Source of the DNA: an uncultured virus (IMG/VR IMGVR_UViG_3300037088_000332)
Taxonomy: Duplodnaviria > Heunggongvirae > Uroviricota > Caudoviricetes
DNA length: 64,000 nucleotides
Strand: one strand, 5' to 3'
IMG/VR virus record: IMGVR_UViG_3300037088_000332
Shown here: positions 19,665-52,514 of the stretch, piece after piece
How the letters are laid out: every line of letters starts with the position of its first letter
Position numbering within the stretch: the stretch's first letter is position 1
Notes under the pieces: generated by a model
What the model was told of the DNA's origin: nothing
What the model saw: only the letters and a program-made list of their open reading frames with translations
Databases searched by the model: none
Made by a program: the position numbers and the translations under genes

Positions 19665-19741
19665 TGGTACCCCCGGAGAGATTTGAACTCCCGACCTTAC
19701 GGGTAGAAACCGTCTGCTCTTGTCCGCTGAGCTACGGGGGC
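19665..19741 (-). tRNA. tRNA-Arg(TCT)
   Basis: GCCCCCG/CGGGGGT acceptor, loop TTTCTAC, TTCAAAT T-loop, CCA. Confidence 0.9.
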
Positions 19742-19914
19742 ATAATTTGATGGGGCTAAGACCTACGGTTAGCTGGCTCCCGGCTTGACATCGGAGAACT
19801 AAGCGCCATAGCCAGTAGTCAGCCTCTCCGATGTTCAACCCCAAACTTGGTGGGGGTGACCAGGCGACAGGTGCGGCAAAGTCATCTGGGCGTTTGAACC
19901 CTGCCCCCATATGT

Positions 19915-20004
19915 TGGTACCCCCGGCAGGACTCGAACCTGCGATGCCTTTCGGCATAGACAGTTCAGGAAACTGTTGCGATATCCATCTCCGCTCACGG
20001 GGGC
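19915..20004 (-). tRNA. tRNA-Arg(CCT) with atypical long variable arm
   Basis: ACAGT-TTCCTGA-ACTGT; variable hairpin ATGCC-GAAA-GGCAT; CCA. Confidence 0.85.
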
Positions 20005-20039
20005 AAAAATCTGCCGGGCGGTTGCCCGTCCGGACTTGG

Positions 20040-20588
20040 TTATTCCTTGTCAATCTCCACGTTCCAGTATAGATATGGGGCGTAGTCCGACCATTCTTCC
20101 CTTATCTTGTTGATGTGAAGCTTGAAATTGAAGCGAGGGTCAGTCGGCTTGGGGGTATAAGGCCTACTGATAAGCCTCATTCCCGCCTGTTCCGGTGTTT
20201 TGCCACCCTTCTCCTTGTTGCATTTCTGGCACGCAATCGCTAAGTTTGGCCAGTCGGACTTTCCCCCCTGGCACAAAGGGGTAACGTGGTCAATAGTGTA
20301 CTCGTGTGTCTTGGTTATCCGTCCGCAGTACTGGCACGAGGCGTTGTCCCGGACCAAGAGATTTCGCCGTGTGCATGGGACGGACTGCTTCTTGCGCCGA
20401 GTCCAGGCATTTTTTACGACGATTATTCTCGGCATCTTCATTTCAAAGTTGGGGCTGTGAAGCACACGACCAGCTTCGTCTTCCTTGACAATCTGGGCAC
20501 GTCCCTCCCACCAGAGCTTGACTGCGTTCTGGTAATCGCAAAACCCAACCGGTTTCCAATACATATCTAAAACTAAGCAATCCTGCAT
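20040..20588 (-). CDS. HNH endonuclease
   Basis: RRNLLVRDNASCQYCG..TIDHVTP..GG..NLAIACQKCNKEKG. Confidence 0.92.
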   Translation of the reverse strand: MQDCLVLDMYWKPVGFCDYQNAVKLWWEGRAQIVKEDEAGRVLHSPNFEMKMPRIIVVKNAWTRRKKQSVPCTRRNLLVRDNASCQYCGRITKTHEYTIDHVTPLCQGGKSDWPNLAIACQKCNKEKGGKTPEQAGMRLISRPYTPKPTDPRFNFKLHINKIREEWSDYAPYLYWNVEIDKE

Positions 20589-20699
20589 GTTAGTCTATGT
20601 TCCCCTTCCCAACCATCTGTGAGGAGCCCTAATAATGCTTCAAGAAAAACTAATTTTCTGATTGAGCCTTTGTGTATCCAGAAACGACCAATAATCAAA

Positions 20700-21097
20700 A
20701 ACCGCCCGCTGCCACGGTTGAGAGGACTCAACGACGCCTTCAACTTCAGAGCTACCTAGCTACCTAGCTGCTTCGCTGCATTGCTCGTGCCCAGAGAAGG
20801 CAATTAGGGCCAGCGTATAGCAGTCAACTTACGCCCGTAAGGACTAGGCAGTGGGGGGAACCTAAAATCTTAGAGCGGAGGTAGCTGGTCTTGGTCCCTG
20901 TCTAAAGGGCAGGTTCTTGGCCAGCCTCATTTCCCTACACCACACGGGTTGATACAGCAGGGTATGTTGATGGTGTCTCACCCCCGCCGCTGCGTTATCC
21001 TAACGCTCCCCCCCGCTCATCCCACTCCTGTGGCCACGCCCTTTAGGCATCGCCGTGTTGAAAGGATAAGCCCACGGCTTAGGCACAACAGGAGCAG
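20700..21097 (-). ncRNA. putative structured ncRNA region (2-3 domains)
   Basis: Downstream of the 21101 promoter motif; long-range stems GCTCCTGT/ACAGGAGT, GAGCGGGGG/CCTCCGCTC, CCCACTGCC/GGCAGCGGG; no credible ORF. Confidence 0.5.
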
Positions 21098-21230
21098 CAC
21101 TTATATAATACATCGGAAAACTGGGAAATTTGAACTTATTTTGAAGCGGTGAGTCCGAGTAGCCTTGTTGGCACCGCTCCGCTCCGCAAGGCTCAAAAGA
21201 TGGGAAGCGGTAAAAACCATCTACCCCGGA

Positions 21231-21449
21231 CTAAGGAGTGATACTTATAATCTCGGAGATTGGATGGAGAAGTAGGACCCCATCGTGCTTTATCGCAAGG
21301 TGCTTGAATCCGTCAAACTCCGTAAACTCGGCTTCACCTTCAGGAAGGCTGTCCCATATCTTCTTGTCCACCACTACGACTTTTGGGATGATGGGATGCC
21401 TTGAGACTTCTTCAAATGCACTTGAAAGGTCCAGCATTACGCTCTCCAC
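21231..21449 (-). CDS. hypothetical protein
   Basis: 72-aa ORF after tRNA-Trp. Confidence 0.55.
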   Translation of the reverse strand: MESVMLDLSSAFEEVSRHPIIPKVVVVDKKIWDSLPEGEAEFTEFDGFKHLAIKHDGVLLLHPISEIISITP

Positions 21450-21454
21450 TGATT

Positions 21455-21529
21455 TGGCAGGGGTGGAGAGATTCGAACTCCCACTGCAGCGTTTTGGAGA
21501 CGCGCCGACTGCCGTTATCTTACACCCCT
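21455..21529 (-). tRNA. tRNA-Trp(CCA)
   Basis: AGGGGTG/CACCCCT, GCGT-CTCCAAA-ACGC, GCCA end. Confidence 0.9.
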
Positions 21530-22044
21530 GAATTTTTGTTCCTATGCCTCCACGGTTTTGAGGTCGGTTGCTGTGTATGACAATGTGGACATAGAAACCT
21601 TAAATTTTCTGACCGGTCATCATACAGTAAACCATTGCGATGGTCTACATGTAGAACAAGTGGTTTTTTATTCCAGATGGGACCTTGACCACAAAGTTCA
21701 CATTTATACTCACGACCGATGTCTATTAGGCAACGCCTTAGTCTATGAGCCTGCTGCCGTGGTTCTGAGGGGTCTCTGAGCACCAATCGTTTATCTGGAG
21801 GAACCCTTTCCGTACCACCTTTATGATTCAGTCCTTTATTATACCCGCACCCCAAAAAATGAGAAGTGTCTATTTTGTGTCTTTTCAATAATCTTCCAAC
21901 ATAAGCATTACTGGTTTTACTTGCGCCAAGAAGTAAAGTCACATTGGTTATGGTTTTAGATACCTTGGCACATCTACTCAAATCTTCGTAAATATATCCC
22001 ATACTTATGGTTTGAGTAGTTGGTTTATAAACCACTGTCGCCAT
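21520..22044 (-). CDS. HNH homing endonuclease
   Basis: CELCG..WNKKPLVLHVDHRNG..DDRSENLRFLCPHCH. Confidence 0.9.
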   Translation of the reverse strand: MATVVYKPTTQTISMGYIYEDLSRCAKVSKTITNVTLLLGASKTSNAYVGRLLKRHKIDTSHFLGCGYNKGLNHKGGTERVPPDKRLVLRDPSEPRQQAHRLRRCLIDIGREYKCELCGQGPIWNKKPLVLHVDHRNGLLYDDRSENLRFLCPHCHTQQPTSKPWRHRNKNSGV

Positions 22045-22067
22045 CTTATGGTGATATTATAACTTTC

Positions 22068-22502
22068 GCTGGCGTCCTATCCGATAAACGAAGACCACGA
22101 CCGAGGGTACCATGGTTACCACGGTCACTGCTACCATTATGGCTACGCAGCACATGCGGTCTTGCGGGAGTCGAACCCACATTACCAGCCTGCCAGCGCT
22201 CTACCAACTGAGCTACGAGTCCCTTGTGGACCCGGAGGATTCGAACCCCATCTCTGGCTGTCTTAATGAGAGCGGAGAGCCTTGCTCAATCAACGCTCCA
22301 GATACGGACAGTGTCCTGAACCACTAGACGAATGCTCACAGCCAGCTACCATTAAGGCTATGCTGGCTCTTCGTGGCCACGAAGCACAGAGCATGCTGGA
22401 TTTGAACCAGCGTTCCCATCCTACTTAACGGCGGGGTCTTGGCTGATTAGATGACCGAGGAGCTAGGCTCCCCGATGGGGATTCGAACCCCAGTTTCCCG
22501 CC
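22068..22502 (-). ncRNA. RNA of four tandem circularly permuted tRNA-like modules
   Basis: Each module runs T arm -> acceptor hairpin -> D arm, closed by an anticodon-stem-like helix. Confidence 0.75.
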
Positions 22503-22507
22503 TGACT

Positions 22508-22586
22508 TGGTCCCAGCGAATGGCATCAAACCACCGACCTCCTTCCAGCCGAAGCGGAAGGTGCTCTTTAGCTGAGCTACGCCGGG
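22508..22586 (-). ncRNA. tRNA-like RNA with cUUCGg-capped anticodon arm (copy 1)
   Basis: CCCGGCG/CGCTGGG acceptor, ACCA end, CCTTCC-GC-TTCG-GC-T-GGAAGG. Confidence 0.8.
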
Positions 22587-22593
22587 ACAAACT

Positions 22594-22670
22594 TGGTTCC
22601 GAGGGCTGGGGTCGAACCAACAGTCTCACCGGTTCAGAGCCGGGGATTTTACCAGTTAAACTACCTCGGA
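22594..22670 (-). tRNA. tRNA-Gln(CTG)
   Basis: TCCGAGG/CCTCGGA, CCGG-CTCTGAA-CCGG, CCA. Confidence 0.88.
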
Positions 22671-22790
22671 ACAATCTTTGCAGAGGGATGATGCAACAGG
22701 TTTCTCAATGCCGTTGGCATCGGCTCCCGGAATTCACAACCTGCCTCTGCACCAGTCGTGAACCCAATCGGGACCTGAAGCTATCAATCT

Positions 22791-22869
22791 TGGTCCAGGC
22801 GAAAGGAATTGAACCCCCGACCTCCTCCCAGCCGAAGCGGAAGGTGCTCTTTCTCTGAGCTACGCCTGG
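22791..22869 (-). ncRNA. tRNA-like RNA with cUUCGg-capped anticodon arm (copy 2)
   Basis: CCAGGCG/CGCCTGG, ACCA, CCTTCC-GC-TTCG-GC-T-GGGAGG. Confidence 0.8.
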
Positions 22870-22876
22870 ACAAACT

Positions 22877-22955
22877 TGGAGCCGGTGAATGGCATCGAAC
22901 CATCGACCCCCCTCTACCCGAAGGAGAAGGTGCTCTCTAGCTGAGCTACACCGGC
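22877..22955 (-). ncRNA. tRNA-like RNA with cUUCGg-capped anticodon arm (copy 3)
   Basis: GCCGGTG/CACCGGC, TCCA, CCTTCT-CC-TTCG-GG-T-AGAGGG. Confidence 0.8.
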
Positions 22956-22962
22956 ACAAACT

Positions 22963-23036
22963 TGGTCTGGGCACTGAGAATCGAACTCAGGTCTTATGCT
23001 CCCGAAGCATAGGCTAGACCTTCCAGCTATGCCCAG
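22963..23036 (-). tRNA. tRNA-Pro(CGG)
   Basis: TATGC-TTCGGGA-GCATA; C1:G72, A73, CCA. Confidence 0.9.
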
Positions 23037-23042
23037 TAAAAA

Positions 23043-23116
23043 TGGTCGGGGTGCTCGGAATTGAACCGAGGTCTTATGCTCCCAAAGCATAGGCTTGACC
23101 GTCCAGCAACACCCCG
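23043..23116 (-). tRNA. tRNA-Pro(TGG)
   Basis: TATGC-TTTGGGA-GCATA; CCA. Confidence 0.9.
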
Positions 23117-23126
23117 TTCTAAATTT

Positions 23127-23205
23127 TGGTCAGGGCACCCGGATTCGGACCGGGGAAACCTCTTGCACCCCAAGCAAGCGCTCTACCAGGCTGAGCTATG
23201 CCCTG
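23127..23205 (-). tRNA. tRNA-Pro(GGG)
   Basis: CTTGC-TTGGGGT-GCAAG; CCA. Confidence 0.88.
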
Positions 23206-23508
23206 ACAAATACTTTGAAGGCTCATCGGTTAAAACCGATGAATTGCCATATGTTTGGCGGAGAAGCTACTCGTAGCTAGCGGGTACGAGTCAATTCATC
23301 TCCTTCAGCAATCAGCACCTCACTCGCAATAGCGGCGGGTGTTTCAGTGCTCACCTTCAAACTTGGCGGTAGGCAGAAGGAGGGTCACTCCTTGGAGCGG
23401 CACGGGGATTGTGCCCCGACGCCCCACACACGCAAACTGGTTAGCCTCGCCAGCCCAGTGTGCTCCTACCATAACCCAGACTTTCAAATGCTTGGATAGA
23501 GGAACACA

Positions 23509-24195
23509 ATGCAAACTATTGATACTACCGCAAGCATTAAGCTACTGAACAAAATCCATGCTGCCAAGTTGGGTGGAAAAGCCACAGGGGTAATTTCTCG
23601 GCGACTGGCGGTTGAAGCGAAAGAACGATATAACTCCAACCCCAACCACTGTATCACTTGTAACATCCCTATCTTGGCTTCTGATAATCCAAAAATCAAA
23701 CTACAGCAGACTCAGAGAAAAAAGCACTGCTCTCATTCTTGTGCCGCCAAACACCGAAAAGGCTTGACCGCTCCTCGATTGTGCCATCACTGCAATAAGA
23801 CCCCTGTGTTAAAGGATAGAATTGTGTGTGATGTGTGCAAAATTCTTCATACTAAGCCTGCGTGGTTTGGCATATTAGCCAACCTAAGCAAGGAGAGTGT
23901 TTTTTCTCGTTGCAAAAACTGGCAGTCGGCTAGAACCGTAATTCGTCAACACGCCGCTTATATCTACGCCTTATCCAACCAGCCGAAAATATGTAAAGTT
24001 TGCGGCTATTCAACCCACGTTGAGGTATGTCATATACAGGCTGTTAGCAGCTTTCTCCACTCTACTCTGATTAGTGAGATAAACAATGGCACTAATCTTG
24101 TTGCCCTTTGCCGTAACCACCATTGGGAGCTTGACCACGGCATTCTTAAATTGGTACCAGGAGTGGGGGTTGAACCCACGACTTCTTCGTTATGA
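23509..24195 (+). CDS. HNH endonuclease, antisense to the tRNA array
   Basis: CKVCGYSTHVEVCHI...NLVALCRNHHWELD; SD GAGGA. Confidence 0.88.
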   Translation: MQTIDTTASIKLLNKIHAAKLGGKATGVISRRLAVEAKERYNSNPNHCITCNIPILASDNPKIKLQQTQRKKHCSHSCAAKHRKGLTAPRLCHHCNKTPVLKDRIVCDVCKILHTKPAWFGILANLSKESVFSRCKNWQSARTVIRQHAAYIYALSNQPKICKVCGYSTHVEVCHIQAVSSFLHSTLISEINNGTNLVALCRNHHWELDHGILKLVPGVGVEPTTSSL

Positions 24196-24228
24196 GCGAA
24201 GCGTTCTCCCACGCTGAACTACCCTGGC
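24152..24228 (-). tRNA. tRNA-Met or Ile2 (CAT)
   Basis: CTTCG-CTCATAA-CGAAG; CCA. Confidence 0.88.
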
Positions 24229-24430
24229 ACAAAACTTGGGTACGTGGTGTTCGGGAGCCATGGTGGTTGCGCACGCTGCACCATGGGTATGTTGCCCGGC
24301 AATCACGCCGCCCGGACAATGGCCTTTATGGGCGCTCACGTACCTGCTTGAAGCATGAGGATGGGTTCGAACCACCGACCCCCCGGAATCCGGTTGCTCT
24401 TCCTAGCTGAGCTATTCAATGCTTCTAATG

Positions 24431-24509
24431 TTGCGGGGGTGGGAATCGGACCCACTTTGCTTTCGCTGGAGCTTATGAGACTCCCGAACGCCCGGTGTTC
24501 TTCCCCGCG
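24431..24509 (-). tRNA. initiator-like tRNA-Met(CAT), atypical
   Basis: C1xA72 mismatch (CGCGGGG/CCCCGCA), GGAGT-CTCATAA-GCTCC, GC-GAAA-GC variable hairpin, no encoded CCA. Confidence 0.7.
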
Positions 24510-24671
24510 TCAAACTTTCTTCTCTTTCGTCATCGCCGCAAGCTTGGTTGCTTGGGTCAGGGTAGCCCAGCGCATCTGCATCAATCGCTTTGTGCCATAC
24601 CATCCCCAATACTCCATCGGGATGATTTTTCCCCACACCCATTTATCAAGCCATACATAAATCTTGGACAT
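24510..24671 (-). CDS. small hypothetical protein (53 aa, MSKIYVWLDKWVWGKIIP...)
   Basis: Hand-translated; below the ORF-track cutoff. Confidence 0.5.
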   Translation of the reverse strand: MSKIYVWLDKWVWGKIIPMEYWGWYGTKRLMQMRWATLTQATKLAAMTKEKKV

Positions 24672-24942
24672 TAGCCAACTGTTCCTTCTCTAATACCCGA
24701 GTCTTGGCATTTTCATGGAACCTAACTCGGCTGCGAACAAACTTTTTAGCGCCTCGGATGTTCTTGGCCACACCGTGTTTGCCGTCCGTCTGGTCATGGG
24801 TACTGGCTCCTGCTGTTACCACCATATCAGCCAATACTGACCTAGCAGTAAAATGCTTGGTCCCTTTGCCGTATCCGTTGCGACCGGGTCCGACATACGC
24901 CGTCATTTGTTCTTTAAATCCTCGTTGATGATTCGTTTTCAT
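24646..24942 (-). CDS. hypothetical protein
   Basis: MKTNHQRGF... starts right after tRNA-Phe. Confidence 0.65.
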   Translation of the reverse strand: MKTNHQRGFKEQMTAYVGPGRNGYGKGTKHFTARSVLADMVVTAGASTHDQTDGKHGVAKNIRGAKKFVRSRVRFHENAKTRVLEKEQLANVQDLCMA

Positions 24943-25798
24943 AAAATTTGGTGGCCAGGACTGGATTTGAACCAGCAACGCCTACCTCTTCAGGGTAGCG
25001 CTCTACCATTGGAGCTACCTGACCACAATCTATAAAATTCACAACTGACAACACTTTTTTTGAAGTTCGTGCCATCGGTATCCATGACCCAAATAGCCCC
25101 TTACTGCTCATTTCTTTAAGAGTCGGCACAAGGTAAATCCATGCATCATATGGCATGTCCCGGCGAAGATAATTACATCGAATACAGGCTGGGTTGACGT
25201 TGTCTTTAGTGTGCCCTTTCGTGTTGTCAATGCGGTCGAGAGTCATCCTAAGCTCTTTTTCTCCACAATAAACACAGCCATTCAAAAAGGCCAATGTAAT
25301 GAATTCTTTATTCAAATCATTATTGTATCCACGTTTTTTATCAGATTGACGACAGTCTTTGAGTACAGTCATCGGCAATCTATTTGGGTCTTGTCTGTAT
25401 TTCCGATTGTAGGAGTTTATAAGCTCCCGATTAGCCTTTCCTTTTTTAAATCGCTTTCTGTATTCTCGGTTGCAAATGTGACAAATATGTCGTTTATATT
25501 GTCTTCCATTCACCCTACGTTTATGAAAGTGAACTTCTGGTTCTGTTTTTCCACAATCATTGCAGCGGTGTTTTCCAAACGATGGGTCATTTTTAATGTA
25601 CGCTGCATCCTTAGCCGCCTGCACATTAAGGCGATGACGAATTGAATTTTTTACATACCAGGCTTCTTGAAACTCCTTTTTACAGGGTTTACATAAAGAA
25701 GCAAATCCATCTTTCTTGGTTTTGTTTCTGTCAAAATTTCTAGATGTAAGCTCCAGTTCTTTTTTGCATTTGTGACATTGTTTAAACTTTGAATCCAT
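24914..25798 (-). CDS. HNH endonuclease with N-terminal Zn-ribbon repeats; 3' end runs through tRNA-Phe
   Basis: CVYCG..MTLDRIDNTKGHTKDNVNPACIRCN; multiple CxxC. Confidence 0.88.
   Translation of the reverse strand: MDSKFKQCHKCKKELELTSRNFDRNKTKKDGFASLCKPCKKEFQEAWYVKNSIRHRLNVQAAKDAAYIKNDPSFGKHRCNDCGKTEPEVHFHKRRVNGRQYKRHICHICNREYRKRFKKGKANRELINSYNRKYRQDPNRLPMTVLKDCRQSDKKRGYNNDLNKEFITLAFLNGCVYCGEKELRMTLDRIDNTKGHTKDNVNPACIRCNYLRRDMPYDAWIYLVPTLKEMSSKGLFGSWIPMARTSKKVLSVVNFIDCGQVAPMVERYPEEVGVAGSNPVLATKFYENESSTRI
24949..25024 (-). tRNA. tRNA-Phe(GAA)
   Basis: CTACC-CTGAAGA-GGTAG; CCA. Confidence 0.9.
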
Positions 25799-25865
25799 CT
25801 CTTAACCCCTTAACTAAATACTGATAATTAAGTTTTTAGTTAAGGGTTGATGCTTTTTGATATTT

Positions 25866-25944
25866 TGGTGGAATCGGCGGATTGGGTGCCCGCAACTTTC
25901 GGCTTAAGAGGCCGCTACGCTTAACCCTTTTGCGTCACGATTCC
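25866..25944 (-). tRNA. tRNA-Lys(CTT), aberrant T-loop
   Basis: GGAATCG/CGATTCC; CGGC-CTCTTAA-GCCG; T-loop lacks TTC. Confidence 0.75.
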
Positions 25945-25962
25945 AAACTTAGTTCTAAATTT

Positions 25963-26039
25963 TGGTACCCCCGATGGGAATTGAACCCACATTTATGTCC
26001 GCTTAAAAGGCGGCTGCATTGCCGGTCTGCCACGGGGGC
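25963..26039 (-). tRNA. tRNA-Lys(TTT)
   Basis: CCGC-CTTTTAA-GCGG; CCA. Confidence 0.88.
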
Positions 26040-26046
26040 TAAATTT

Positions 26047-26132
26047 TGGCTCCGAGGGAGGGAATCGAACCCCCACTAGGCTTGCGCCAGTCTGGTTAAC
26101 AGCCAGATGCCATACCTTTAGGCGACCTCGGA
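26047..26132 (-). tRNA. tRNA-Asn(GTT) with atypical long variable arm
   Basis: TCTGG-CTGTTAA-CCAGA; GGC-GCAA-GCC variable hairpin; G73, CCA. Confidence 0.87.
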
Positions 26133-26175
26133 ACAATCTTTAATGCTGCTTTAAATATGGCAGCAAGTTTAAATA

Positions 26176-26254
26176 TGGTACCCCCGGAGAGATTTGAACT
26201 CCCGCCCGTTCGCTTCGAAGGCGACCGCTCTGTTCCAGGCTGAGCTACAGGGGC
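26176..26254 (-). tRNA. tRNA-Arg(TCG)
   Basis: TCGC-CTTCGAA-GCGA; CCA. Confidence 0.88.
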
Positions 26255-26283
26255 ACATTTTTTACTGTCCACTCCTTCAAACT

Positions 26284-26358
26284 TGGTACCCCCAAGAGGA
26301 ATCGAACCCCTGTCTCATCGTTCGTAGCGATGTGCGTTCTCCACTACACTATGAGGGC
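26284..26358 (-). tRNA. tRNA-Arg(ACG)
   Basis: CATCG-CTACGAA-CGATG; CCA. Confidence 0.9.
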
Positions 26359-26439
26359 ACAATTTTCCGGCGTGGGTCGCCTATTCTAAGTCCGGGGATT
26401 GGATACCCACACCCTAGAGGTACAGACCCACGCCAAACT

Positions 26440-26514
26440 TGGTAGTCCCGCTCGGGGTCGAACCGAGATTTTAGCCTTCGGAGGGCTACGCCCTATCCAT
26501 TGGACGACGGAACC
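26440..26514 (-). tRNA. tRNA-Arg(CCG)
   Basis: TAGCC-CTCCGAA-GGCTA; CCA. Confidence 0.9.
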
Positions 26515-26549
26515 ATAAACTCGTGGGAGGAGTTTCCCTCCTCCCCGCA

Positions 26550-26618
26550 GGGAGCCTTCTTCCTCTTGAACTACAGCCTTGGTTTGGCTGGCGGGTCTCG
26601 ATTCCCGCATTGTCTCCC
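26550..26618 (-). ncRNA. single circularly permuted tRNA-like module
   Basis: GGGAG..GCGGG-AATCGAGA-CCCGC, CAGCC/GGCTG hairpin, TA-GTTCAAGAGGAAGAAG, CTCCC. Confidence 0.6.
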
Positions 26619-26727
26619 GTGACTTAGTGGCGGTGTCCAGCAGCGTAACATATCGGGTTTCACCGGGTCATGACTCCCGGCTACTTATTAGGTCCCTGCT
26701 CACTCGCTGCCAATCTTCCGCCCATAT

Positions 26728-26802
26728 TGGGGTGACCGGTGGGTGACAATCCCACGACCTCCTGGTTCACAGCCAGGCGCTCTATCGTTGAGCTACGGCC
26801 AC
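26728..26802 (-). tRNA. tRNA-His(GTG), aberrant T-loop
   Basis: CCTGG-CTGTGAA-CCAGG; C73 then CCA; T-loop ATTGTCA. Confidence 0.78.
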
Positions 26803-26882
26803 ACTCTGCGCAACGGTTATCTTCACGTCACGACTTAATCTTGAAATAATCCCAGTTCCTTGACCACCTGTCCCCTTAAACT

Positions 26883-26960
26883 TGGGCGCAAGGGACGGAT
26901 TTAAACCGTCGTCCATCCGGCACCACTGCCGGTGCTCTCTCTACCTGAGCTACCCTACAC
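26883..26960 (-). ncRNA. tRNA-His-like RNA with 4-nt anticodon loop
   Basis: G-1:C73 and CCA; CCGGCA-GTGG-TGCCGG. Confidence 0.65.
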
Positions 26961-27049
26961 ATAAAAATGAAAAGCCCAATCTTAAACTCAGGGCAGGGCT
27001 TATACCTTGATGCCCAATGGGTCTTATAACCTGCTGCCTGCCCTAATCT

Positions 27050-27124
27050 TGGCGGGAGAGGAGGGACTCGAACCCCCGTACTTGGTTTTGGAGACCAAGG
27101 TCCTAGCCGCTAGACGACTCGCCC
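27050..27124 (-). tRNA. tRNA-Trp(CCA)
   Basis: TTGGT-CTCCAAA-ACCAA; GCCA. Confidence 0.9.
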
Positions 27125-27132
27125 GAAAAACT

Positions 27133-27208
27133 TGGGGGGAGGGATGGGACTCGAACCCACAACTACCTGCTCCACAGGCAGGCGTTCTACCATTGAACTA
27201 CCCTTCCC
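27133..27208 (-). tRNA. tRNA-His(GTG)
   Basis: CCTGC-CTGTGGA-GCAGG; G-1:C73, CCA. Confidence 0.9.
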
Positions 27209-27210
27209 AT

Positions 27211-27254
27211 AAAAACGAAAACCCCCACCAGAACTTTCGCTCGATGGGGGTTTC
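27211..27254 (-). terminator. attenuator-type intrinsic terminator before tRNA array 1
   Basis: GAAACCCCCATC-GAGCGAAAGTTC-TGGTGGGGGTTTT-CGTTTTT, ending 2 nt before the first tRNA. Confidence 0.85.
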
Positions 27255-27276
27255 TTTCATTCTGTTTTGCTAGGTC

Positions 27277-27381
27277 TTACCTTGTACAACCCCTTGCTAA
27301 CAGAGCCCCACCGAACCTTGGGCGGCTAAAATTATGCCGCTTAGGCTGCCACTTCATCGGATTTGGTTTCCTGTTTCGCAT
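27277..27381 (-). CDS. putative leader peptide of array 1 (MRNRKPNPMKWQPKRHNFSRPRFGGALLARGCTR)
   Basis: Hand-translated; 22 of the first 23 codons are read by array-1 tRNAs; contains the antiterminator strand 27306-27315. Confidence 0.8.
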   Translation of the reverse strand: MRNRKPNPMKWQPKRHNFSRPRFGGALLARGCTR

Positions 27382-27660
27382 TTGTCTCTCTATGATGCTG
27401 GTAGTGCAGTCAAGGTTTCCTTGTTCCCTCTCAAACTGAGTACTTCTCATCAGGAAACAGTGTTGCCCACAACTAGCCTAGACCTCGGCAACCCGCAGCA
27501 GCGTCTTTTGACCCGCTGTACCCTACCAGCAAACTTGCTGGCGGCAAGTCTGGGTAACTCTTCTTTCCAGCAACTCAAGCCGCCTTAGCTGGCCACCTTA
27601 GTGGTGTCTTTCTCCTACACTCATATAATACCTTCGGTAGTCGTGGTTTTCAGGAAATTT

Positions 27661-27915
27661 TTATTTTACCGGTGCTGCGGGACCCGTTGGACCTGTGGGA
27701 CCCTGAAGCGGATACTCACAGCGTTTAGCTAGCACAAAGCCTTCTGGCGTGGTCTTGAACACATTTCCGCCCGACACTAACAGGGTTCGAGAAATAAGTT
27801 GGGTCTTATATTCGTTGTACCATTTTTCGGCCGCAGCCACGTTGTTGAAGTCTCGTCCTACTCCTGCTAACCCTGCTGGGACAGGTTCGGGAAACTCCCA
27901 GAAAATCGTCGGCAT
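27661..27915 (-). CDS. hypothetical protein with short GPT collagen-like tail
   Basis: SD GGAAGG; QGPTGPTGP. Confidence 0.7.
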   Translation of the reverse strand: MPTIFWEFPEPVPAGLAGVGRDFNNVAAAEKWYNEYKTQLISRTLLVSGGNVFKTTPEGFVLAKRCEYPLQGPTGPTGPAAPVK

Positions 27916-27916
27916 A

Positions 27917-40682: not shown

Positions 40683-41621
40683 TCACTCCGTATCCCCCAC
40701 CAACTGCTTGTAGGTGATGCGGCGACCAACGGTCTGCTTCATAACTTCCGAAAACCTCTGCGCATCATTCCCGTGCCGTTCGTTGTACCGGAACACCTGC
40801 TCACCCAAATACCTGACCAAGTGGAACGGCTCAACGCTGACATAAGTTCCCTTGACGGTGCGCTTCAACAGGCTCCAGAAGTTCTCCAGCCCGTTTGTAT
40901 ACACCCGCCTCCGGACGTACTCGACGGCATGGTCAACAAATTGGTGGTCATATTGACCAGCTAATCCACCGTAAGAGGCTAATGCATCGGTATAAACGGA
41001 TGACCCGCCAGCGACTTGCGCCCCTACAAGGTTGTGCAAAGTCTTTTTCTTACGGTTTGGAATCACGGTGGCAATCACCTTTCCGCCCCGTTCCAAGCAT
41101 CCTAGCACGGGAATCTTATCTTTGCCGCCAGTCCCGGTAATGCTCTCAGCTCGCCTGCCTTCGTGCATGTTCTTGGAAAGTCCGCCGATGAAGGTCTCGT
41201 CAACCTCAACTTCGCCCGCAAGCTTCATGAAGGAGCCGGTCTGCATTGCCTTGCGGATACGGTGCAGCATGAACCAAGCCGACTTCTGCGTCACACCCAG
41301 GGCACGGTGAAGCTCGTAGGAACTAATCCCGTTCTTGCATACCGACAGGAGCCACACGGCGGGGAGCCATTTTTCCAAACTGATTGGACTGTCCTCGAAG
41401 ATGGTCCCGACCTTGAGCGAGAACTTGGGGCTCTTGTGGCCAGCATAGCATTTATAAACCCGTGCCTTCTCCAGATAGGCCACATGGTCAGAATCACACT
41501 TGGGACATTTGACCACTCCGTCCAGCCAACGGACCTCGACCATGAATTTGTGGCAGTTGGAGTAGTCGCCGAAGAACCTGACCGCTTCGAGCAAAGTATG
41601 GGGAGAATTTATCGTTTCCAT
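40683..41621 (-). mobile_element. IS1595-family (ISXO2-like) transposase
   Basis: Zn ribbon CPKC..YKC; GTIFEDS; VEVDETFIGG; VYTD; HAVEYV; TNGLENFWSLLKR; YLGEQVFRYN. Element ends not identified. Confidence 0.92.
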
Positions 41622-41746
41622 ACCTATAGTATACATCGGAAACTATGGTCTGTCAGGTACAAAATTTAGTTTCCCACTGGTATTTTCAGTGGGGTGAGCA
41701 TATAGTTTTTACGGTTTTAATTCACTGATAAAAGAGGACTTATACA

Positions 41747-42564: not shown

Positions 42565-43854
42565 TCATAGCACCTTCTCAAGGACGTAGTCTTCGGCGTT
42601 GCCGATTTCCGTCCACGGGATGTGACACTCGTCGAGAATCCTCTTCGTGGCTATTAACGACTCCGCCCAGCGCCCCAGCTTGTCGGCGTCCGGGCATGGG
42701 AACACGAACCGTTTGATGCCTGCCTGCATCATCTGCACGGCGCACCGTATGCAGGAGCAAAACGGCCACGTATAGAGGACACAGCCTTTCACCGGCCCGT
42801 TGGCGAAGAGCAGGGCGTTTATCTCGCAGTTATGCATTGGGAAACCTTCTACAATCATCGTGCGGGTGGAGGTTTGTACTTTAGCAATCTCTTGGGTACC
42901 GGCTGGTTCTACCGCCATGACACAACGTATGCAGTGTCGAGAAGAGTGCATTCTTCCAAACTTGTCAGGATTAAGCTTATTCAGTAGTCGTTTTGGTCTG
43001 ACAGTACCTAGAAAAGATAGACGTTCAGACAACCTGCCACGTATATGGGCAGCGAGACAGTCCTTTTTTCCTAATCCCCCTTGCATTGGGAATGAGTGTG
43101 TCCAAATGTGAAAATCTTGTGCTCGGTTTTTTAAGAGTCTCAGGACCTCCTCCAGAACCAATCCCGGTCTTTGTGCAAATTGTAAGGTGTGTCCGTGTTT
43201 AGAAATTGAGCCTTCCCCATCTAGCAAACCCGCTAAGTACCCAGCATCATAATCCGTAGCGGTAACCCAAGGTGTAAACAATTTATAAATTTTAGATGAG
43301 TGGTGGGCGAGGCCATCTTTTGTCAACCTAGCATTCTTGGGGGGTATGAGCAATTCGTCAGTTCTCCTCCACCGCCTCACATTGTTTGACCTAACCCCCA
43401 GTAACCAGCGGTGTTCTGCTGTACAGAGAATTTCGCTATTGTCATTAAAAATGACCCTAAAGACAGGCTCTTTGGCAAAGCTTATGTGTTCAACAATAGA
43501 CCTTCGGTATTTTCTACCACTTCGAGTTAGAGGGAATTCGTCAAACCCAACGAGGGCGTCCCCCACCTTGACTCCCCCCAATTCCACCCAACGTAAATCT
43601 GCGGTCAATGTTTTGTGAGATGGAACAGTGCAATGAACGATGTGGTCATACTTATAGGTCCGGTCGGTGTAAAGCTCGGGGTCATCTTTGGCCCCCTGCG
43701 GGAAGCCGTTGAATCCCACGCCCACCACCGACTTGTTCGGGCGCACGATGACCGCTCCCGTTTTAGTACTTGAATCTTTTGACCATGATGCTATGTGCGC
43801 CGAAAGTTCTAAGAAACGCCTATCCCACTTGTCGCTAATCTTGATTTTTTCCAT
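42565..43854 (-). CDS. dCMP deaminase containing an intein
   Basis: WSKDSSTKTGAVIV, GFNGFP, H|CE.NA, PFCSCIRC. Confidence 0.92.
   Translation of the reverse strand: MEKIKISDKWDRRFLELSAHIASWSKDSSTKTGAVIVRPNKSVVGVGFNGFPQGAKDDPELYTDRTYKYDHIVHCTVPSHKTLTADLRWVELGGVKVGDALVGFDEFPLTRSGRKYRRSIVEHISFAKEPVFRVIFNDNSEILCTAEHRWLLGVRSNNVRRWRRTDELLIPPKNARLTKDGLAHHSSKIYKLFTPWVTATDYDAGYLAGLLDGEGSISKHGHTLQFAQRPGLVLEEVLRLLKNRAQDFHIWTHSFPMQGGLGKKDCLAAHIRGRLSERLSFLGTVRPKRLLNKLNPDKFGRMHSSRHCIRCVMAVEPAGTQEIAKVQTSTRTMIVEGFPMHNCEINALLFANGPVKGCVLYTWPFCSCIRCAVQMMQAGIKRFVFPCPDADKLGRWAESLIATKRILDECHIPWTEIGNAEDYVLEKVL
42829..43632 (-). mobile_element. intein with LAGLIDADG endonuclease (268 aa)
   Basis: Starts CTVPSHKTLTADL, block B TAEHRW, YLAGLLDGEG, ends MHN before Cys. 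Confidence 0.9.
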
Positions 43855-44607: not shown

Positions 44608-44621
44608 CCGAATACAGGGGG

Positions 44622-49492: not shown

Positions 49493-49848
49493 CAGGGCTT
49501 ACCCCCGTCGCCCCTCTTGGGGTCTTCCGGGAAGGGCTTCTCGGAATGCTGCCTTGCTATGCTGGAGGAGTCCGCTGTCGCGCCTGGGAGCATGATGACG
49601 GAGATACCCTTTGTTATTCTCATTGAGGATGACGGCGGGGCGGATGCTGTCTTGGGCGCTGGCTTTGCAGGCGGTGTTGGCTTGGGGGCTGGCGGTCTCT
49701 TGGCAGGGTTCGCCTTCTTGACGGGGGTGGCCTTCTTGGCGTCTTCCGGGAACTTCTTCTCCGGGGCTTGCTGGGCGACGGCAGTCCCCACCATAACTAT
49801 CAGCATCATGGACATGACGAGTGCGGTCAGCTTCTTGGGGATAGACAT
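49492..49848 (-). CDS. secreted Pro/Lys/Ala-rich protein
   Basis: Signal peptide; SD AAGGAG. Confidence 0.7.
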   Translation of the reverse strand: MSIPKKLTALVMSMMLIVMVGTAVAQQAPEKKFPEDAKKATPVKKANPAKRPPAPKPTPPAKPAPKTASAPPSSSMRITKGISVIMLPGATADSSSIARQHSEKPFPEDPKRGDGGKP

Positions 49849-50330
49849 TATTTCTCCTTATGGGTTTCGTTTTCCAGAGCCTTGTGGAGGTCCTCCAGCA
49901 TCTCGTCAAGCTTTCGGTAGATGGGGATGTTGTCAAACTCGCAATACAGGTGAAGGTTTCCTTGTCTGTAGAACCCCTCCTCCACGCAAACTATACAATC
50001 TTTTTCATCTCCGAACCGACCAAGCTCATACATCGTAACAGGAGCCTTGCTTTCCTTGGTAAAGCAGTATAGGATGAGGTCTGCGGAGCGCATTGCATTA
50101 AACTCCCAAGTGACCTGCTCCCTGAACTGAGGGTCGTCAGCCTCCTGTGTCCAAGAGTCGTCCCAGTCGTCCCGTTTCGGGGATAGTATCTGTATGTCTA
50201 AGTCTTTTAATGCTTTGAAGACTTCCTCATGCCAAGGTCGGGTCTTCCCCATATCAATGCTTCCAGCAAGGAAGATAGTGTACTTGCCCATTCGGGGATA
50301 CGGGTTGGGGGCCTTTATTACTGTCGCCAT
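49848..50330 (-). CDS. nucleoside 2-deoxyribosyltransferase-like protein
   Basis: IFLAGSIDMG..W..P.RDDWD..QVTWE..AD..SKAPVTMYELG. Confidence 0.85.
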   Translation of the reverse strand: MATVIKAPNPYPRMGKYTIFLAGSIDMGKTRPWHEEVFKALKDLDIQILSPKRDDWDDSWTQEADDPQFREQVTWEFNAMRSADLILYCFTKESKAPVTMYELGRFGDEKDCIVCVEEGFYRQGNLHLYCEFDNIPIYRKLDEMLEDLHKALENETHKEK

Positions 50331-50513: not shown

Positions 50514-50599
50514 TGGCGGAGGATGGAGAAATCGAATCTCCTGGTTTTACCCAGCCCTGGTTTTCGAAGCCAGTTACAGACCATTCCGTGGCATCCTCC
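50514..50599 (-). tRNA. tRNA-Ser(CGA)
   Basis: Loop TTCGAAA, long variable arm, G73 CCA. Confidence 0.85.
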
Positions 50600-50753
50600 G
50601 TGCAGCTATCATGGACTTGTAGACCCCTCTTACCGTAAACTCAAAGAGGTCATCAAAGGGTCTAGTTTCCCAGAGGTGGATGATGTCCTCTTGACTAGCC
50701 CCACATTCTTCAAGAATTTCTGTAAATCGTTCTTTGGTCATACTCTATGATAC

Positions 50754-50847
50754 TGGCGGAAGGGATGGGACTCGGACCCACATGTCCCGTTCGTCACGGG
50801 AGCGCCTGCTTTCCAGGCAGGTGAGCTACCAGTTGCTCAACCCTTCC
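50754..50847 (-). tRNA. tRNA-Ser(GGA)
   Basis: CCTGC-CTGGAAA-GCAGG, long variable arm. Confidence 0.88.
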
Positions 50848-50852
50848 AAAGA

Positions 50853-50942
50853 TGGCGGATAAAGTAGGATTCGAACCTACGGAGCCCTCTCGGGCTCTCC
50901 GGTTTTCAAGACCGGTGGTTTAAGCCACTCACCCATCTATCC
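50853..50942 (-). tRNA. tRNA-Ser(TGA)
   Basis: CCGGT-CTTGAAA-ACCGG, long variable arm. Confidence 0.92.
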
Positions 50943-51021
50943 GAATAGCCTTGCCTATTCCGTCATCGGTACCTATGAGGAAAGGGCACGGATTGTAAGC
51001 CCGCACCTTTATCGGCAAACT

Positions 51022-51114
51022 TGGCGGAAGCGACCTGATTCGAACAGGTGAACCCCCTTCCGAGGGTCAGCACTTTAGCAAAGTGCTGGGTTAATCCATC
51101 TCCCCCACGCTTCC
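51022..51114 (-). tRNA. tRNA-Ser(GCT)
   Basis: GCACT-TTGCTAA-AGTGC, long variable arm. Confidence 0.9.
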
Positions 51115-51120
51115 GTAACT

Positions 51121-51207
51121 TGGTGCCGCAGGACGGATTCGAACCGTCACTGGATTTCTCCAACCAGTTTTTGAGACTGGCGGGTCTACCGATTCCCCCA
51201 CTGCGGC
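51121..51207 (-). tRNA. tRNA-Leu(CAA)
   Basis: CCAGT-CTCAAAA-ACTGG; A73 CCA. Confidence 0.92.
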
Positions 51208-51214
51208 ATAAACT

Positions 51215-51301
51215 TGGTGCGAGAGGGGGGAGTCAAACCCCCATCTGATTGCTCAGACCAGTTTTTAAAACTGGCGTGTCTGTCGGTTCCACCACTCTCG
51301 C
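51215..51301 (-). tRNA. tRNA-Leu(TAA)
   Basis: CCAGT-TTTAAAA-ACTGG; A73 CCA. Confidence 0.88.
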
Positions 51302-51916
51302 AAGTTCCTTAAGGTTCTTTACGTTCTTACCAGTAAAAGTATCAGTCTGAGTATGACAATTAGGACAAACCTTTCTAAGGTTTTCCCAACGGTTATCGCT
51401 GACAAACCCATTTTTGTGGTCAACTTGTAACCGTAAAAATCTGCCATTCCAAGTGGAACTTTGACCACATATCTCACAAATATGGGGTGTTCGTTTATAG
51501 TAGCGGCTCTTAGCCACCTTCTGATGCTGCGTGGTACCTTTGCAAAAAACTAAAGAATCAGACAATTCTCGTTTCTTTAACCCCGCATCAATCCGAGCAT
51601 CAGTATCTCTCGTTAGTCCCCGACTCCACCCACGCTTCTCTAATCCCACTTTAGAAATTGTCGGTCCCCCATAGACACAATGCATTCTATGGGCACTGAC
51701 AGCCTCTATAGTTCGAAACTTTCGGCTACATTTTTCACATCCATGAGACCAAGGGTTAACTCCTGTTTTTCTACCCTTTAATTTTATTGAGACAGCTTGA
51801 TTTATCTCCTGCCTCTTCTCTTTGGATGAAAAAGAACGAGCGCACTTTGAAGAGCAAAACCTTCCTGAGCCATACGCTCCATCTGTTTGTGTGCCACATA
51901 ACTCACAATTAGCCAT
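51233..51916 (-). CDS. HNH endonuclease; 3' end overlaps tRNA-Leu(TAA)
   Basis: CEICG..WNGRFLRLQVDHKNG..DNRWENLRKVCPNCHTQT; SD AGGAGG. Confidence 0.9.
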   Translation of the reverse strand: MANCELCGTQTDGAYGSGRFCSSKCARSFSSKEKRQEINQAVSIKLKGRKTGVNPWSHGCEKCSRKFRTIEAVSAHRMHCVYGGPTISKVGLEKRGWSRGLTRDTDARIDAGLKKRELSDSLVFCKGTTQHQKVAKSRYYKRTPHICEICGQSSTWNGRFLRLQVDHKNGFVSDNRWENLRKVCPNCHTQTDTFTGKNVKNLKELARVVEPTDTPVLKTGLSNQMGV

Positions 51917-51956
51917 AACTGACCTCCTAACTATGGGTTAGAAAGTCAGTTTGAAC

Positions 51957-52045
51957 TGGTGCGACCGGAGGGACTCGAACCCACACGCCCATTGCTGAGC
52001 CATAGATTCTGAATCTATGTTGTCTACCGATTCCAGCACGGTCGC
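51957..52045 (-). tRNA. tRNA-Leu(CAG)
   Basis: ATAGA-TTCAGAA-TCTAT; long variable arm. Confidence 0.9.
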
Positions 52046-52050
52046 AAATT

Positions 52051-52128
52051 TGGTCCGTAGAGGGGGACTCGAACCCCCAAGCCTTGCGTTCTAAGCGCAA
52101 GAGGTATGCCAATTCCCTTCACCTACGG
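52051..52128 (-). tRNA. tRNA-Leu(TAG) lacking the long variable arm
   Basis: TTGCG-CTTAGAA-CGCAA; 5-nt variable loop; A73 CCA. Confidence 0.85.
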
Positions 52129-52135
52129 ATAATTT

Positions 52136-52219
52136 TGGTGCGGAAGGGGGGACTTGAACCCCCACCCCTTTCGGGACCAGATTCTTAGTCTGGCGAGTCT
52201 GCCATTCCACCACTTCCGC
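52136..52219 (-). tRNA. tRNA-Leu(AAG)
   Basis: CCAGA-CTAAGAA-TCTGG; long variable arm; CCA. Confidence 0.9.
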
Positions 52220-52327
52220 AAACTATTGGCAGCGTCGTGGGACCGGTGACACTTCTGCGGTTGCCCATACGGTTGTTCGTGTGTCCTACCACACGCTGTA
52301 CTCATTTTCGCTGGACACTGCCAAACT

Positions 52328-52406
52328 TGGTGGCACCGGAGGGAGTCGAACCCCCAATTTCTCGGTTTACAACCGAGTGTTCTGCCTGTTGAACTACAAC
52401 GGTCCC
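52328..52406 (-). tRNA. tRNA-Tyr(GTA), atypical short-variable-arm form
   Basis: CTCGG-TTGTAAA-CCGAG; 5-nt acceptor-D linker; CCA. Confidence 0.75.
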
Positions 52407-52420
52407 ACAAACTTAAAACT

Positions 52421-52514
52421 TGGTGGGTGTGGGAGGATTCGAACCCCCAACGTCTGGACAAGCCAAATTCCGGGTTACAGCCGGATGCAGCCAAGCCGTA
52501 TCTGCTTCACACCC
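52421..52514 (-). tRNA. tRNA-Tyr(GTA)
   Basis: CCGG-CTGTAAC-CCGG; long variable arm; CCA. Confidence 0.88.

What the first reader, a model, noticed from the sequence alone, without database searches (positions are those of the whole stretch)
19665..52514. tRNA set split into amino-acid-defined regulons; predicts a third array and leader
Seen: array 1 covers nine amino acids and array 2 covers the three class-II amino acids, with no overlap and isoacceptors grouped. No canonical Ala, Cys, Asp, Glu, Gly, Ile(GAT), Thr or Val tRNA was found in the window. Inference: the arrays are separately inducible modules, and another array for A/C/D/E/G/I/T/V with a matching leader may lie elsewhere in the genome.
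Basis: inference. Interest (0 to 1): 0.7.

Follow-up and report, generated by a model that had tools for sequence, protein, structure and literature searches.

The report
Codon-matched attenuators split phage tRNA genes
An uncultured peat phage keeps its tRNA genes in separate blocks, each behind a tiny test gene written in the codons that block's tRNAs read plus a switchable stop signal, so each block is probably made only when ribosomes run short of it; a near-complete relative has the predicted missing blocks.

Summary
ARAGORN finds 31 tRNA-type genes on the minus strand in two arrays. Array 1 covers nine amino acids and array 2 only Leu, Ser and Tyr. They share no amino acid, and no Ala, Cys, Asp, Glu, Gly, Ile, Thr or Val tRNA is in the window.

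Corrections: four calls have no anticodon loop, and Rfam adds a Lys tRNA.

Each array has a shared promoter-like motif found nowhere else in the window. It also has a 29-34 codon leader ORF enriched in its own array's amino acids that holds a readable codon for every anticodon (15 of 15; 9 of 9). An intrinsic terminator and a competing antiterminator follow.

The design recurs in five related uncultured phage records examined.

The predicted extra array exists in relatives, as two arrays. One 316,945-base, 99%-complete relative has four arrays covering all 20 amino acids: Ala/Cys/Asp/Glu/Gly/Val and Ile/Thr/Gln complete the set, each with a matching leader and terminator.

The window's own genome beyond 64 kb could not be read.

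Nine literature searches found no description. Earlier notes of this scan report the same logic on other phage DNA.

The parts
27621..27657 (-). Promoter-like motif heading array 1 (sigma-70-like hexamers with a conserved spacer)
   Evidence: The 37-nt motif has only 2 matches in the window, both about 400 nt upstream of an array, against 0 expected in shuffles. It is conserved in front of both G001 arrays and three G004 arrays.
27382..27620 (-). About 240 nt of transcribed leader between the promoter and leader ORF 1; function unknown
   Evidence: It is only patchily conserved with G001. No Rfam family matches at E<=1.
27277..27381 (-). Leader ORF 1 (34 codons plus stop), enriched in array 1's nine amino acids
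   Evidence: 23 of 33 residues are in the set (background 0.36). Every one of 15 distinct anticodons has a readable codon. It is the only one of 3,498 short ORFs in the window that reaches both values. The first 45 nt are 42/45 identical to G001, G004 and G005, and most differing codons are synonymous.
27306..27316 (-). Antiterminator strand inside leader ORF 1 (codons 22-26); pairs with the 5' arm of terminator 1
   Evidence: duplex -19.4 kcal/mol; shuffle p 0.006.
27216..27254 (-). Intrinsic terminator 1, ending a few bases before the first tRNA
   Evidence: hairpin -23.9 kcal/mol followed by a T run.
19665..27207 (-). tRNA array 1: 17 canonical ARAGORN tRNAs plus Lys-CUU (25869-25944), covering Arg, Trp, Gln, Pro, Met, Phe, Lys, Asn and His. 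It also holds 5 anticodon-less tRNA-likes, a CyVA-1 RNA match and four HNH/endonuclease genes.
52956..52992 (-). Promoter-like motif heading array 2
52749..52838 (-). Leader ORF 2 (29 codons plus stop), enriched in Ser, Leu and Tyr
   Evidence: 17 of 28 residues are in the set (background 0.19, binomial p 1.3e-6). 9 of 9 anticodons have a readable codon. 2 of 3,498 short ORFs reach both values.
52774..52786 (-). Antiterminator strand inside leader ORF 2; pairs with the region that includes the 5' arm of terminator 2
   Evidence: With the short core arm alone the duplex test is not significant (p 0.34).
52703..52721 (-). Intrinsic terminator 2
50754..52514 (-). tRNA array 2: Tyr x2, Leu x5, Ser x3, interrupted by one HNH gene (51233-51916)

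Best explanation
The window is part of a large uncultured phage of peat.

Its tRNA genes are organised as separate transcription units. Each unit starts at the same type of promoter, followed by a short translated leader ORF, then an intrinsic terminator, then the tRNA genes. Each leader is written in the codons that the tRNAs behind it read.

Proposed mechanism (inferred):
- If a ribosome translating the leader stalls early because one of those codons is decoded slowly, a strand in the 3' part of the leader ORF stays free. It pairs with the 5' arm of the terminator, and transcription runs on into the tRNA genes.
- If the leader is read quickly, the ribosome covers that strand or sits at the stop codon, which lies about 19-28 nt before the terminator in 11 of 13 scored leaders. 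The terminator then forms.
- Each array would therefore be a self-limiting, separately switched supply unit for one group of amino acids.

Shown here: the arrays, the codon match, the terminators, the alternative pairings, and their conservation in relatives.

Inferred: translation of the leaders, the direction of the switch, and what causes the stalling.

The window holds two such units. By analogy with a near-complete relative, the genome most likely carries two more outside the window: Ala/Cys/Asp/Glu/Gly/Val and Ile/Thr/Gln.
For: Window:
- Two arrays share no amino acid.
- The promoter-like motif occurs only at the two array heads.
- Leader ORFs lie at 27277-27381 and 52749-52838 with purine-rich stretches before the ATG.
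- Own-set residues are 23/33 and 17/28 (p 8.7e-5 and 1.3e-6). Every anticodon has a readable codon in its leader, 15/15 and 9/9.
- The leaders rank 1 and 2 of 3,498 short ORFs in the window.
- Both have strong terminators. The terminator 5' arm pairs with the leader ORF when the 3' arm is left out.

Relatives:
- The window is syntenic with G001 and G004 at about 50-70% protein identity, yet the first 45 nt of leader 1 are 41-43/45 identical across pairs, with mostly synonymous changes.
- Across 15 leader-array pairs in 5 genomes, anticodon coverage is complete in 14; the exception is 5/6.
- 13 of 15 have a scripted terminator plus antiterminator.
- The duplex test over those 13 gives Fisher p 2e-7 (shuffles) and 1.5e-6 (random genome windows). 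The lineages are related, so these are not independent trials.

Leader content tracks array content:
- In G002 and G003 array 2 has lost Ser tRNAs, and those leaders are mainly Leu/Tyr.
- Their array 1 is Pro/Met/Phe, and so are its leaders.
- The G003 and G004 Ile/Thr/Gln arrays have Thr/Ile/Gln-rich leaders.

G004's four arrays together cover all 20 amino acids.
Against: - There are no expression data: no RNA run is listed for this DNA.
- Translation of the leaders is inferred, and the Shine-Dalgarno-like stretches are weak.
- 2 of 15 leaders (array 1 of G002 and of G003) gave no terminator in my script. By eye they have hairpins without a T run.
- For the small five-anticodon arrays the match is modest: p 0.001-0.014, and 64 of 6,317 and 122 of 12,979 short ORFs do as well.
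- The raw fraction for G003 leader 2 is higher for array 3's set (0.43) than for its own (0.30). It exceeds background only for its own set (0.12 against 0.35 background).
- The duplex test is not significant for array 2 of the window and of G001 when only the core arm is used.
- The tails of the leaders hold other amino acids.
- A stalled ribosome cannot tell missing tRNA from uncharged tRNA.
- The extra arrays are not shown for this genome. The G001 record (157,656 bases) has none, although it covers only the part collinear with G004 0.3-138 kb.
Confidence: 0.72

Rival explanations
1. General translation-stress or amino-acid-starvation sensor. The leaders are real attenuators, but they report any slowing of ribosomes (starvation, uncharged tRNA, host shut-off). 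The amino-acid grouping then has little regulatory meaning, and the arrays rise and fall together.
For: All arrays share one promoter type. A stall cannot distinguish absent from uncharged tRNA (established attenuator logic, recalled). The leaders are not perfectly exclusive: 0.09-0.26 of residues belong to other arrays' sets. Earlier notes of this scan describe single pan-codon leaders in other phages (unchecked).
Against: Each leader holds a readable codon for every anticodon of its own array in 14 of 15 pairs and is enriched only for its own set relative to background. Leader content changes with array content between lineages.
Confidence: 0.15
2. The grouping is historical only. Isoacceptors sit together because arrays grew by local duplication and anticodon change, and the upstream ORFs and hairpins are not a working switch.
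For: Some neighbours are alike: the three tetraloop tRNA-likes at 81-86%, two Pro genes at 80%, and Arg-tct/Arg-tcg at 81%.
Against: Most tRNAs are only 65-75% identical to their best partner in the window, so duplication is old. The split and the gene order are kept across genomes with about 50% protein identity. Leaders rank first among thousands of short ORFs and lie exactly at array heads. Leader 1 is far better conserved than neighbouring proteins.
Confidence: 0.08
3. RNA-only element. The leader region acts without being translated, for example by binding tRNA as a T-box does, or as a separate small RNA with its own terminator. The arrays would then use another start site.
For: About 240 nt precede leader ORF 1 and 180 nt separate terminator 2 from the first tRNA. 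The Shine-Dalgarno-like stretches are weak.
Against: No T-box or any other Rfam family matches the leaders at E<=1. Differences in leader 1 between lineages are mostly synonymous, the pattern of a translated frame. Complete codon coverage of the anticodons is hard to explain without decoding.
Confidence: 0.05

Closest known systems
Multivalent leader-peptide transcription attenuators of amino-acid operons (ilvGMEDA with Ile/Leu/Val codons, thr with Thr/Ile codons; also trp, his, leu, pheA) - named from my own knowledge
   Same: A short translated ORF rich in chosen codons, an intrinsic terminator before the regulated genes, and a competing antiterminator whose 5' strand lies at the end of the ORF. 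Several amino acids are sensed by one leader.
   Different: The regulated genes are tRNA genes, not biosynthetic enzymes. The leaders sample up to nine amino acids and every anticodon of the array, rather than runs of one codon. No Rfam leader family matches. In my folds the antiterminator also forms with no ribosome present (mask 0), unlike the trp design as I recall it.
Leader-peptide control of the phenylalanyl-tRNA synthetase operon (pheST) and T-box control of aminoacyl-tRNA synthetase genes - recalled
   Same: Supply of the decoding machinery is tuned to the charging or availability of the matching tRNA.
   Different: Those systems regulate synthetases. T-boxes bind the tRNA directly, and no T-box match is present here.
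tRNA gene clusters of large phages (T4, T5, KVP40-type vibriophages, jumbo phages) - recalled; roles proposed in codon supply and in replacing host tRNAs cut by defence nucleases
   Same: Tens of tRNA genes sit in tight same-strand arrays interrupted by homing endonuclease genes.
   Different: I found no description of leader-peptide control or of amino-acid-defined transcription units in nine full-text searches. I saw listings and abstract starts only.
Earlier notes of this scan on other phage DNA
   Same: Leader ORF written in the codons of the downstream tRNA array, with a terminator and antiterminator. At least eight other genomes are listed.
   Different: Those are AI notes on other genomes that I did not check. 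New here are the four-unit partition covering all 20 amino acids in a near-complete relative, and leader content that changes with array content between lineages.

Membership tests
Ribosome-mediated (leader-peptide) transcription attenuator | Promoter upstream of a short ORF with a start codon and ribosome-binding stretch | tested here: met
   Promoter-like motif. ATG-started ORFs of 29-34 codons preceded by purine-rich stretches. Function of the promoter and ribosome-binding stretch is inferred.
Ribosome-mediated (leader-peptide) transcription attenuator | Leader enriched in codons tied to the regulated genes | tested here: met
   Window: 23/33 and 17/28 residues in the own set. Anticodon coverage is complete in 14 of 15 pairs.
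Ribosome-mediated (leader-peptide) transcription attenuator | Intrinsic terminator between the leader ORF and the first regulated gene | tested here: met
   Both window leaders have one; 13 of 15 over all genomes.
Ribosome-mediated (leader-peptide) transcription attenuator | Mutually exclusive antiterminator that a translating ribosome can mask | tested here: met
   About half of the 13 are individually significant (8 of 13 by the shuffle control, 7 of 13 by random genome windows, at p<0.05). Array 2 of the window is not significant with the core arm alone.
Ribosome-mediated (leader-peptide) transcription attenuator | Read-through rises when ribosomes stall in the leader | not testable with these tools
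   No cultured phage or host. No RNA run is listed.
Ribosome-mediated (leader-peptide) transcription attenuator | Regulated genes encode amino-acid biosynthesis enzymes or synthetases (all described cases I recall) | tested here: not met
   The regulated genes are tRNA genes. I therefore file it as a new variant, not a member of a described leader family.
Rfam leader families and T-box riboswitch | Match to a curated covariance model | tested here: not met
   No family other than tRNA at E<=1 in 27150-27700 and 52450-53050. No leader or T-box match appears in the whole-window gathering scan, whose only non-tRNA match is CyVA-1 at 21154-21230.
Phage tRNA gene array | Cluster of same-strand tRNA genes in a phage genome | tested here: met
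   ARAGORN and Rfam. Phage context: RIIA, RIIB, DNA ligase, dCMP deaminase and HNH genes.

The most novel reading that the evidence does not exclude
The phage runs a multi-channel decoding sensor. Each tRNA array is a feedback-controlled unit that is switched on only when the host's tRNAs for that codon group fail, for instance after cleavage by anticodon nucleases or other tRNA-targeting defences. The phage then replaces just what was destroyed. The anticodon-less, CCA-ended tRNA-likes inside array 1 could be decoys for such nucleases.
Probability: 0.3. Interest if true: 0.9.

Novelty: new variant of a known kind. Interest (0 to 1): 0.8.

Why it matters
Phage tRNA genes are usually discussed as a fixed supplement to the host pool. 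Here the sequence indicates that supply is sensed and switched at the level of codon groups, using the oldest known bacterial regulatory trick on a new class of genes.

If it works as read:
- It gives a direct, testable link between decoding speed and tRNA gene expression.
- It offers an explanation for why large phage tRNA sets are cut into blocks.
- It provides natural sensors of tRNA availability that could be used as reporters for tRNA-targeting defence systems.

The finding also shows that a prediction made from 64 kb alone, that the missing amino acids sit in further leader-headed arrays, is met in a near-complete relative.

Tried and rejected
The metagenome records behind L040 and L041 are not held either, so the 207,614-base contig could be read only at two 20-kb loci.
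- Near-identity searches of GenBank phages found nothing useful. By RIIA protein the best cultured phages are at most 33% identical.
- My first motif pattern was mistyped and gave 0 matches. A spacing-only pattern missed the two real sites. The exact window motif is absent from IMG/VR.
- No RNA holder is listed among 16 runs; the holders are peat metagenomes. I did not lay reads.
- The lone Gly call in G001 (20334-20413) is probably false. It has no CCA end and no Rfam match at E<=0.001.
- My first candidate for the G003 array-3 leader, upstream of an isolated Ala tRNA, was weak. The real one lies directly before the Val tRNA.
- A third promoter-like site inside array 1 (about 21111, minus strand) is not followed by an Arg-rich leader.
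- The tRNA similarity analysis gave no sign of recent duplication as the cause of the grouping.
- The scan's notes hold nothing for this genome.
Full report
**What is in the window**

The 64-kb window is phage DNA. Most genes lie on the minus strand. Profile searches name RIIA (11236-13662), RIIB (9753-10991), an ATP-dependent DNA ligase (4353-5486), a dCMP deaminase with a LAGLIDADG insertion (42565-43854) and many HNH endonucleases.

No whole genome is held for it. It has no near relative among GenBank phages, and RIIA is at most 33% identical to cultured phages. Public runs that hold this DNA are peat metagenomes, and none is on record as RNA.

**The observation**

ARAGORN finds 31 genes, all on the minus strand.
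- Array 1 (19665-27207, 21 calls) covers Arg, Pro, Trp, His, Gln, Met, Phe, Lys and Asn.
- Array 2 (50754-52514, 10 calls) covers Ser, Leu and Tyr.
- No amino acid is shared.
- No tRNA for Ala, Cys, Asp, Glu, Gly, Ile, Thr or Val appears in ARAGORN or among the 29 Rfam tRNA matches.
- All genes encode the 3' CCA.

Four array-1 calls are not decoders. In three the anticodon arm is an eight-pair stem with one bulge and a UUCG tetraloop, and in the fourth it is a six-pair stem with a tetraloop. Rfam adds a Lys tRNA (anticodon CUU) at 25869-25944 and another anticodon-less tRNA-like at 22157-22222.

**Heads of the arrays**

About 400 nt upstream of each array lies a 37-nt promoter-like motif. It occurs only at those two places in the window, with none in 100 shuffles. 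It fits sigma-70-type hexamers with a 17-nt spacer. Beyond the motif the two leaders are not alike.

Each leader holds an ATG-started ORF: 27277-27381 (34 codons) and 52749-52838 (29 codons). Each ORF is followed by a strong hairpin and T run at 27216-27254 and 52703-52721.

**Codon match**

- Leader 1: 23 of 33 residues after the initiator belong to array 1's nine amino acids (background 0.36, binomial p 8.7e-5).
- Leader 2: 17 of 28 are Ser, Leu or Tyr (background 0.19, p 1.3e-6).
- The cross values are 0.09 and 0.18.
- With standard wobble rules, every distinct anticodon of an array has at least one readable codon in its own leader: 15 of 15 and 9 of 9.
- Among all 3,498 short ORFs of the window (12-70 codons, any start, both strands), only 1 and 2 ORFs reach both the fraction and the coverage of leaders 1 and 2.

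**The switch**

When the 3' arm of the terminator is left out, the 5' arm pairs with a stretch in the last third of the leader ORF (leader 1, codons 22-26). This pairing disappears only when that stretch is masked, as a ribosome would mask it.

Most of the matching codons lie upstream of that stretch. The stop codon lies about 19-28 nt before the terminator in 11 of 13 scored leaders.

This is the layout of a leader-peptide attenuator: an early stall gives an antiterminator and read-through, and fast reading gives termination. The direction of the switch is my inference.

No Rfam family, T-box included, matches either leader at E<=1.

**Relatives**

Protein and pattern scans of IMG/VR and the metagenome collection found related uncultured phage records.

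G001 (157,656 bases, GC 62%) is syntenic with the whole window at about 50-60% protein identity.
- It has the same two arrays in the same gene order, plus a His tRNA seen only at a relaxed threshold.
- It has the same promoter motif at exactly the two array heads.
- Its leaders are homologous.

G005 (140,398 bases) also has both arrays and both leaders. G006-G008 gave the same tRNA scores as G005 and were not examined further.

The first 45 nt of leader 1 are 41-43 of 45 identical in all six pairs among the window, G001, G004 and G005. Differing codons are 2-4 synonymous against 0-1 non-synonymous. The terminator arms differ between lineages but stay complementary to the ORF strand.

**The predicted further array**

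G004 (316,945 bases, CheckV 99% complete, GC 54%) is as close to the window as G001. The window matches G004 71.6-136 kb. ARAGORN finds 60 tRNA genes there in four arrays:

| Array | Position in G004 | Amino acids |
|---|---|---|
| 2 | 80.7-82.2 kb | Tyr, Leu, Ser |
| 1 | 108.2-115.4 kb | the same nine as window array 1 |
| 3 | 256.0-258.4 kb, minus strand | Val, Gly, Ala, Asp, Glu, Cys |
| 4 | 311.5-312.5 kb | Ile, Thr, Gln |

Together the four arrays cover all 20 amino acids.

Arrays 3 and 4 each carry the promoter motif and a leader ORF covering 12 of 12 and 5 of 5 anticodons. Only 5 and 7 of 15,697 short ORFs do as well. Each also has a terminator with antiterminator.

More distant relatives have the third array with a matching leader and terminator: G002 (132,623 bases) and G003 (264,912 bases), at 47-48% identity in the query protein. 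G003 also has the Ile/Thr/Gln array.

In G004 these lie 115 kb and more beyond the stretch that matches the window.

G001 shows no such array, but it is collinear only with G004 0.3-138 kb. I could not read the window's own genome beyond 64 kb, and I put the chance that it carries these arrays at about 0.7.

**Leaders follow array content**

- In G002 and G003 array 2 holds only Tyr and Leu genes, and the leaders are mainly Leu/Tyr.
- Their array 1 holds Pro, Met and Phe (plus one Ser in G002), and the leaders are rich in these.
- The Gln codon used in a leader matches the Gln anticodon of the array behind it. This is my reading of the sequences.

Over 15 leader-array pairs in five genomes, anticodon coverage is complete in 14; the exception is 5 of 6.

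**Weak points**

- The five-anticodon arrays give modest statistics: p 0.001-0.014, and up to 122 of 12,979 ORFs do as well.
- Two of 15 leaders had no scripted terminator.
- The duplex test, combined p 2e-7 and 1.5e-6 over 13 leaders, uses related lineages. It is not significant for array 2 of the window and of G001 with the core arm alone.
- Nothing shows expression.
- About 240 nt between the promoter and leader ORF 1, and 180 nt after terminator 2, are unexplained.

**Why the grouping**

tRNAs within the window are mostly 65-75% identical to their best partner. Recent duplication therefore does not explain the clustering, and the split is conserved across lineages.

A leader acts as an OR gate over its codons, so splitting the set lets the phage induce only the group that is short. 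This is inference. I have no explanation for why Leu, Ser and Tyr, or the amino acids with G-starting codons plus Cys, travel together.

**Comparison with what is known**

The logic is that of multivalent leader-peptide attenuators of amino-acid operons (recalled), applied to tRNA genes.

Nine full-text searches found no paper describing leader-peptide or attenuator control of tRNA genes in phages or bacteria. I saw listings and abstract starts only.

The scan's own notebook lists the same reading on at least eight other phage genomes. I did not check those notes, and I had recorded my reading before seeing them.

**Verdict**

- Observation: confirmed.
- Interpretation: supported, with inducibility inferred and the extra arrays shown only in relatives.
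- Novelty: a new variant of a known kind of regulation.
- Interest: 0.8.

Noticed in passing
window 22508-22586, 22791-22869, 22877-22955, 26883-26959, 22157-22222 (minus strand): Five CCA-ended tRNA-like genes inside array 1 have no anticodon loop. Three carry an extended stem capped by a UUCG tetraloop, with compensatory changes between copies. One His-like gene has a four-base loop, and one is degenerate. They may be decoys, processing signals or decayed genes.
   Followed up: partly
window 19915-20004 and 26047-26132; 52051-52128 and 52331-52403: Unusual tRNA shapes: Arg (cct) and Asn carry long variable arms, while one Leu (tag) and one Tyr have short ones.
   Followed up: no
window 21154-21230 (minus strand): A match above threshold to the Rfam CyVA-1 RNA motif (49.7 bits, cut-off 41.4) sits inside array 1 between tRNA genes.
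   Followed up: no
window 20040-20588, 21520-22044, 23509-24195 (+), 24914-25798, 51233-51916: HNH or endonuclease VII-like genes interrupt both arrays. In G002 one sits between the leader terminator and the first tRNA of array 3.
   Followed up: no
window about 21111 and about 54363 (minus strand); G004 about 253789: Further sites share the extended -10-like core of the array promoters. The one at 21111 lies inside array 1, ahead of an HNH gene and the last two Arg tRNAs, and has no Arg-rich leader.
   Followed up: partly
window 42565-43854 and 54465-56366 (+): A dCMP deaminase is split by a LAGLIDADG-type insertion. A papain-like peptidase carries an intein splicing domain with an HNH motif.
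   Followed up: no
window 40683-41636 (minus strand): An IS1595-family transposase gene (DDE domain E 2e-38) lies within the phage DNA between the two arrays.
   Followed up: no
window 36147-36650 and 49848-50330 (minus strand): A marginal match to the N-terminal domain of dATP/dGTP diphosphohydrolase (27.7 bits, cut-off 27) and a clear nucleoside 2-deoxyribosyltransferase-like protein hint at unusual nucleotide metabolism.
   Followed up: no
G002 about 53090-53111 and 84065-84084; G003 about 140388 and 173119: In the more distant relatives the leader ORF start lies only about 6 nt after the -10-like element, so these leaders may be translated from leaderless transcripts.
   Followed up: no
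window 27382-27620 and 52515-52702 (minus strand): The long untranslated stretches before leader ORF 1 and after terminator 2 have no assigned role. A GC-rich hairpin lies at about 52855-52890.
   Followed up: no
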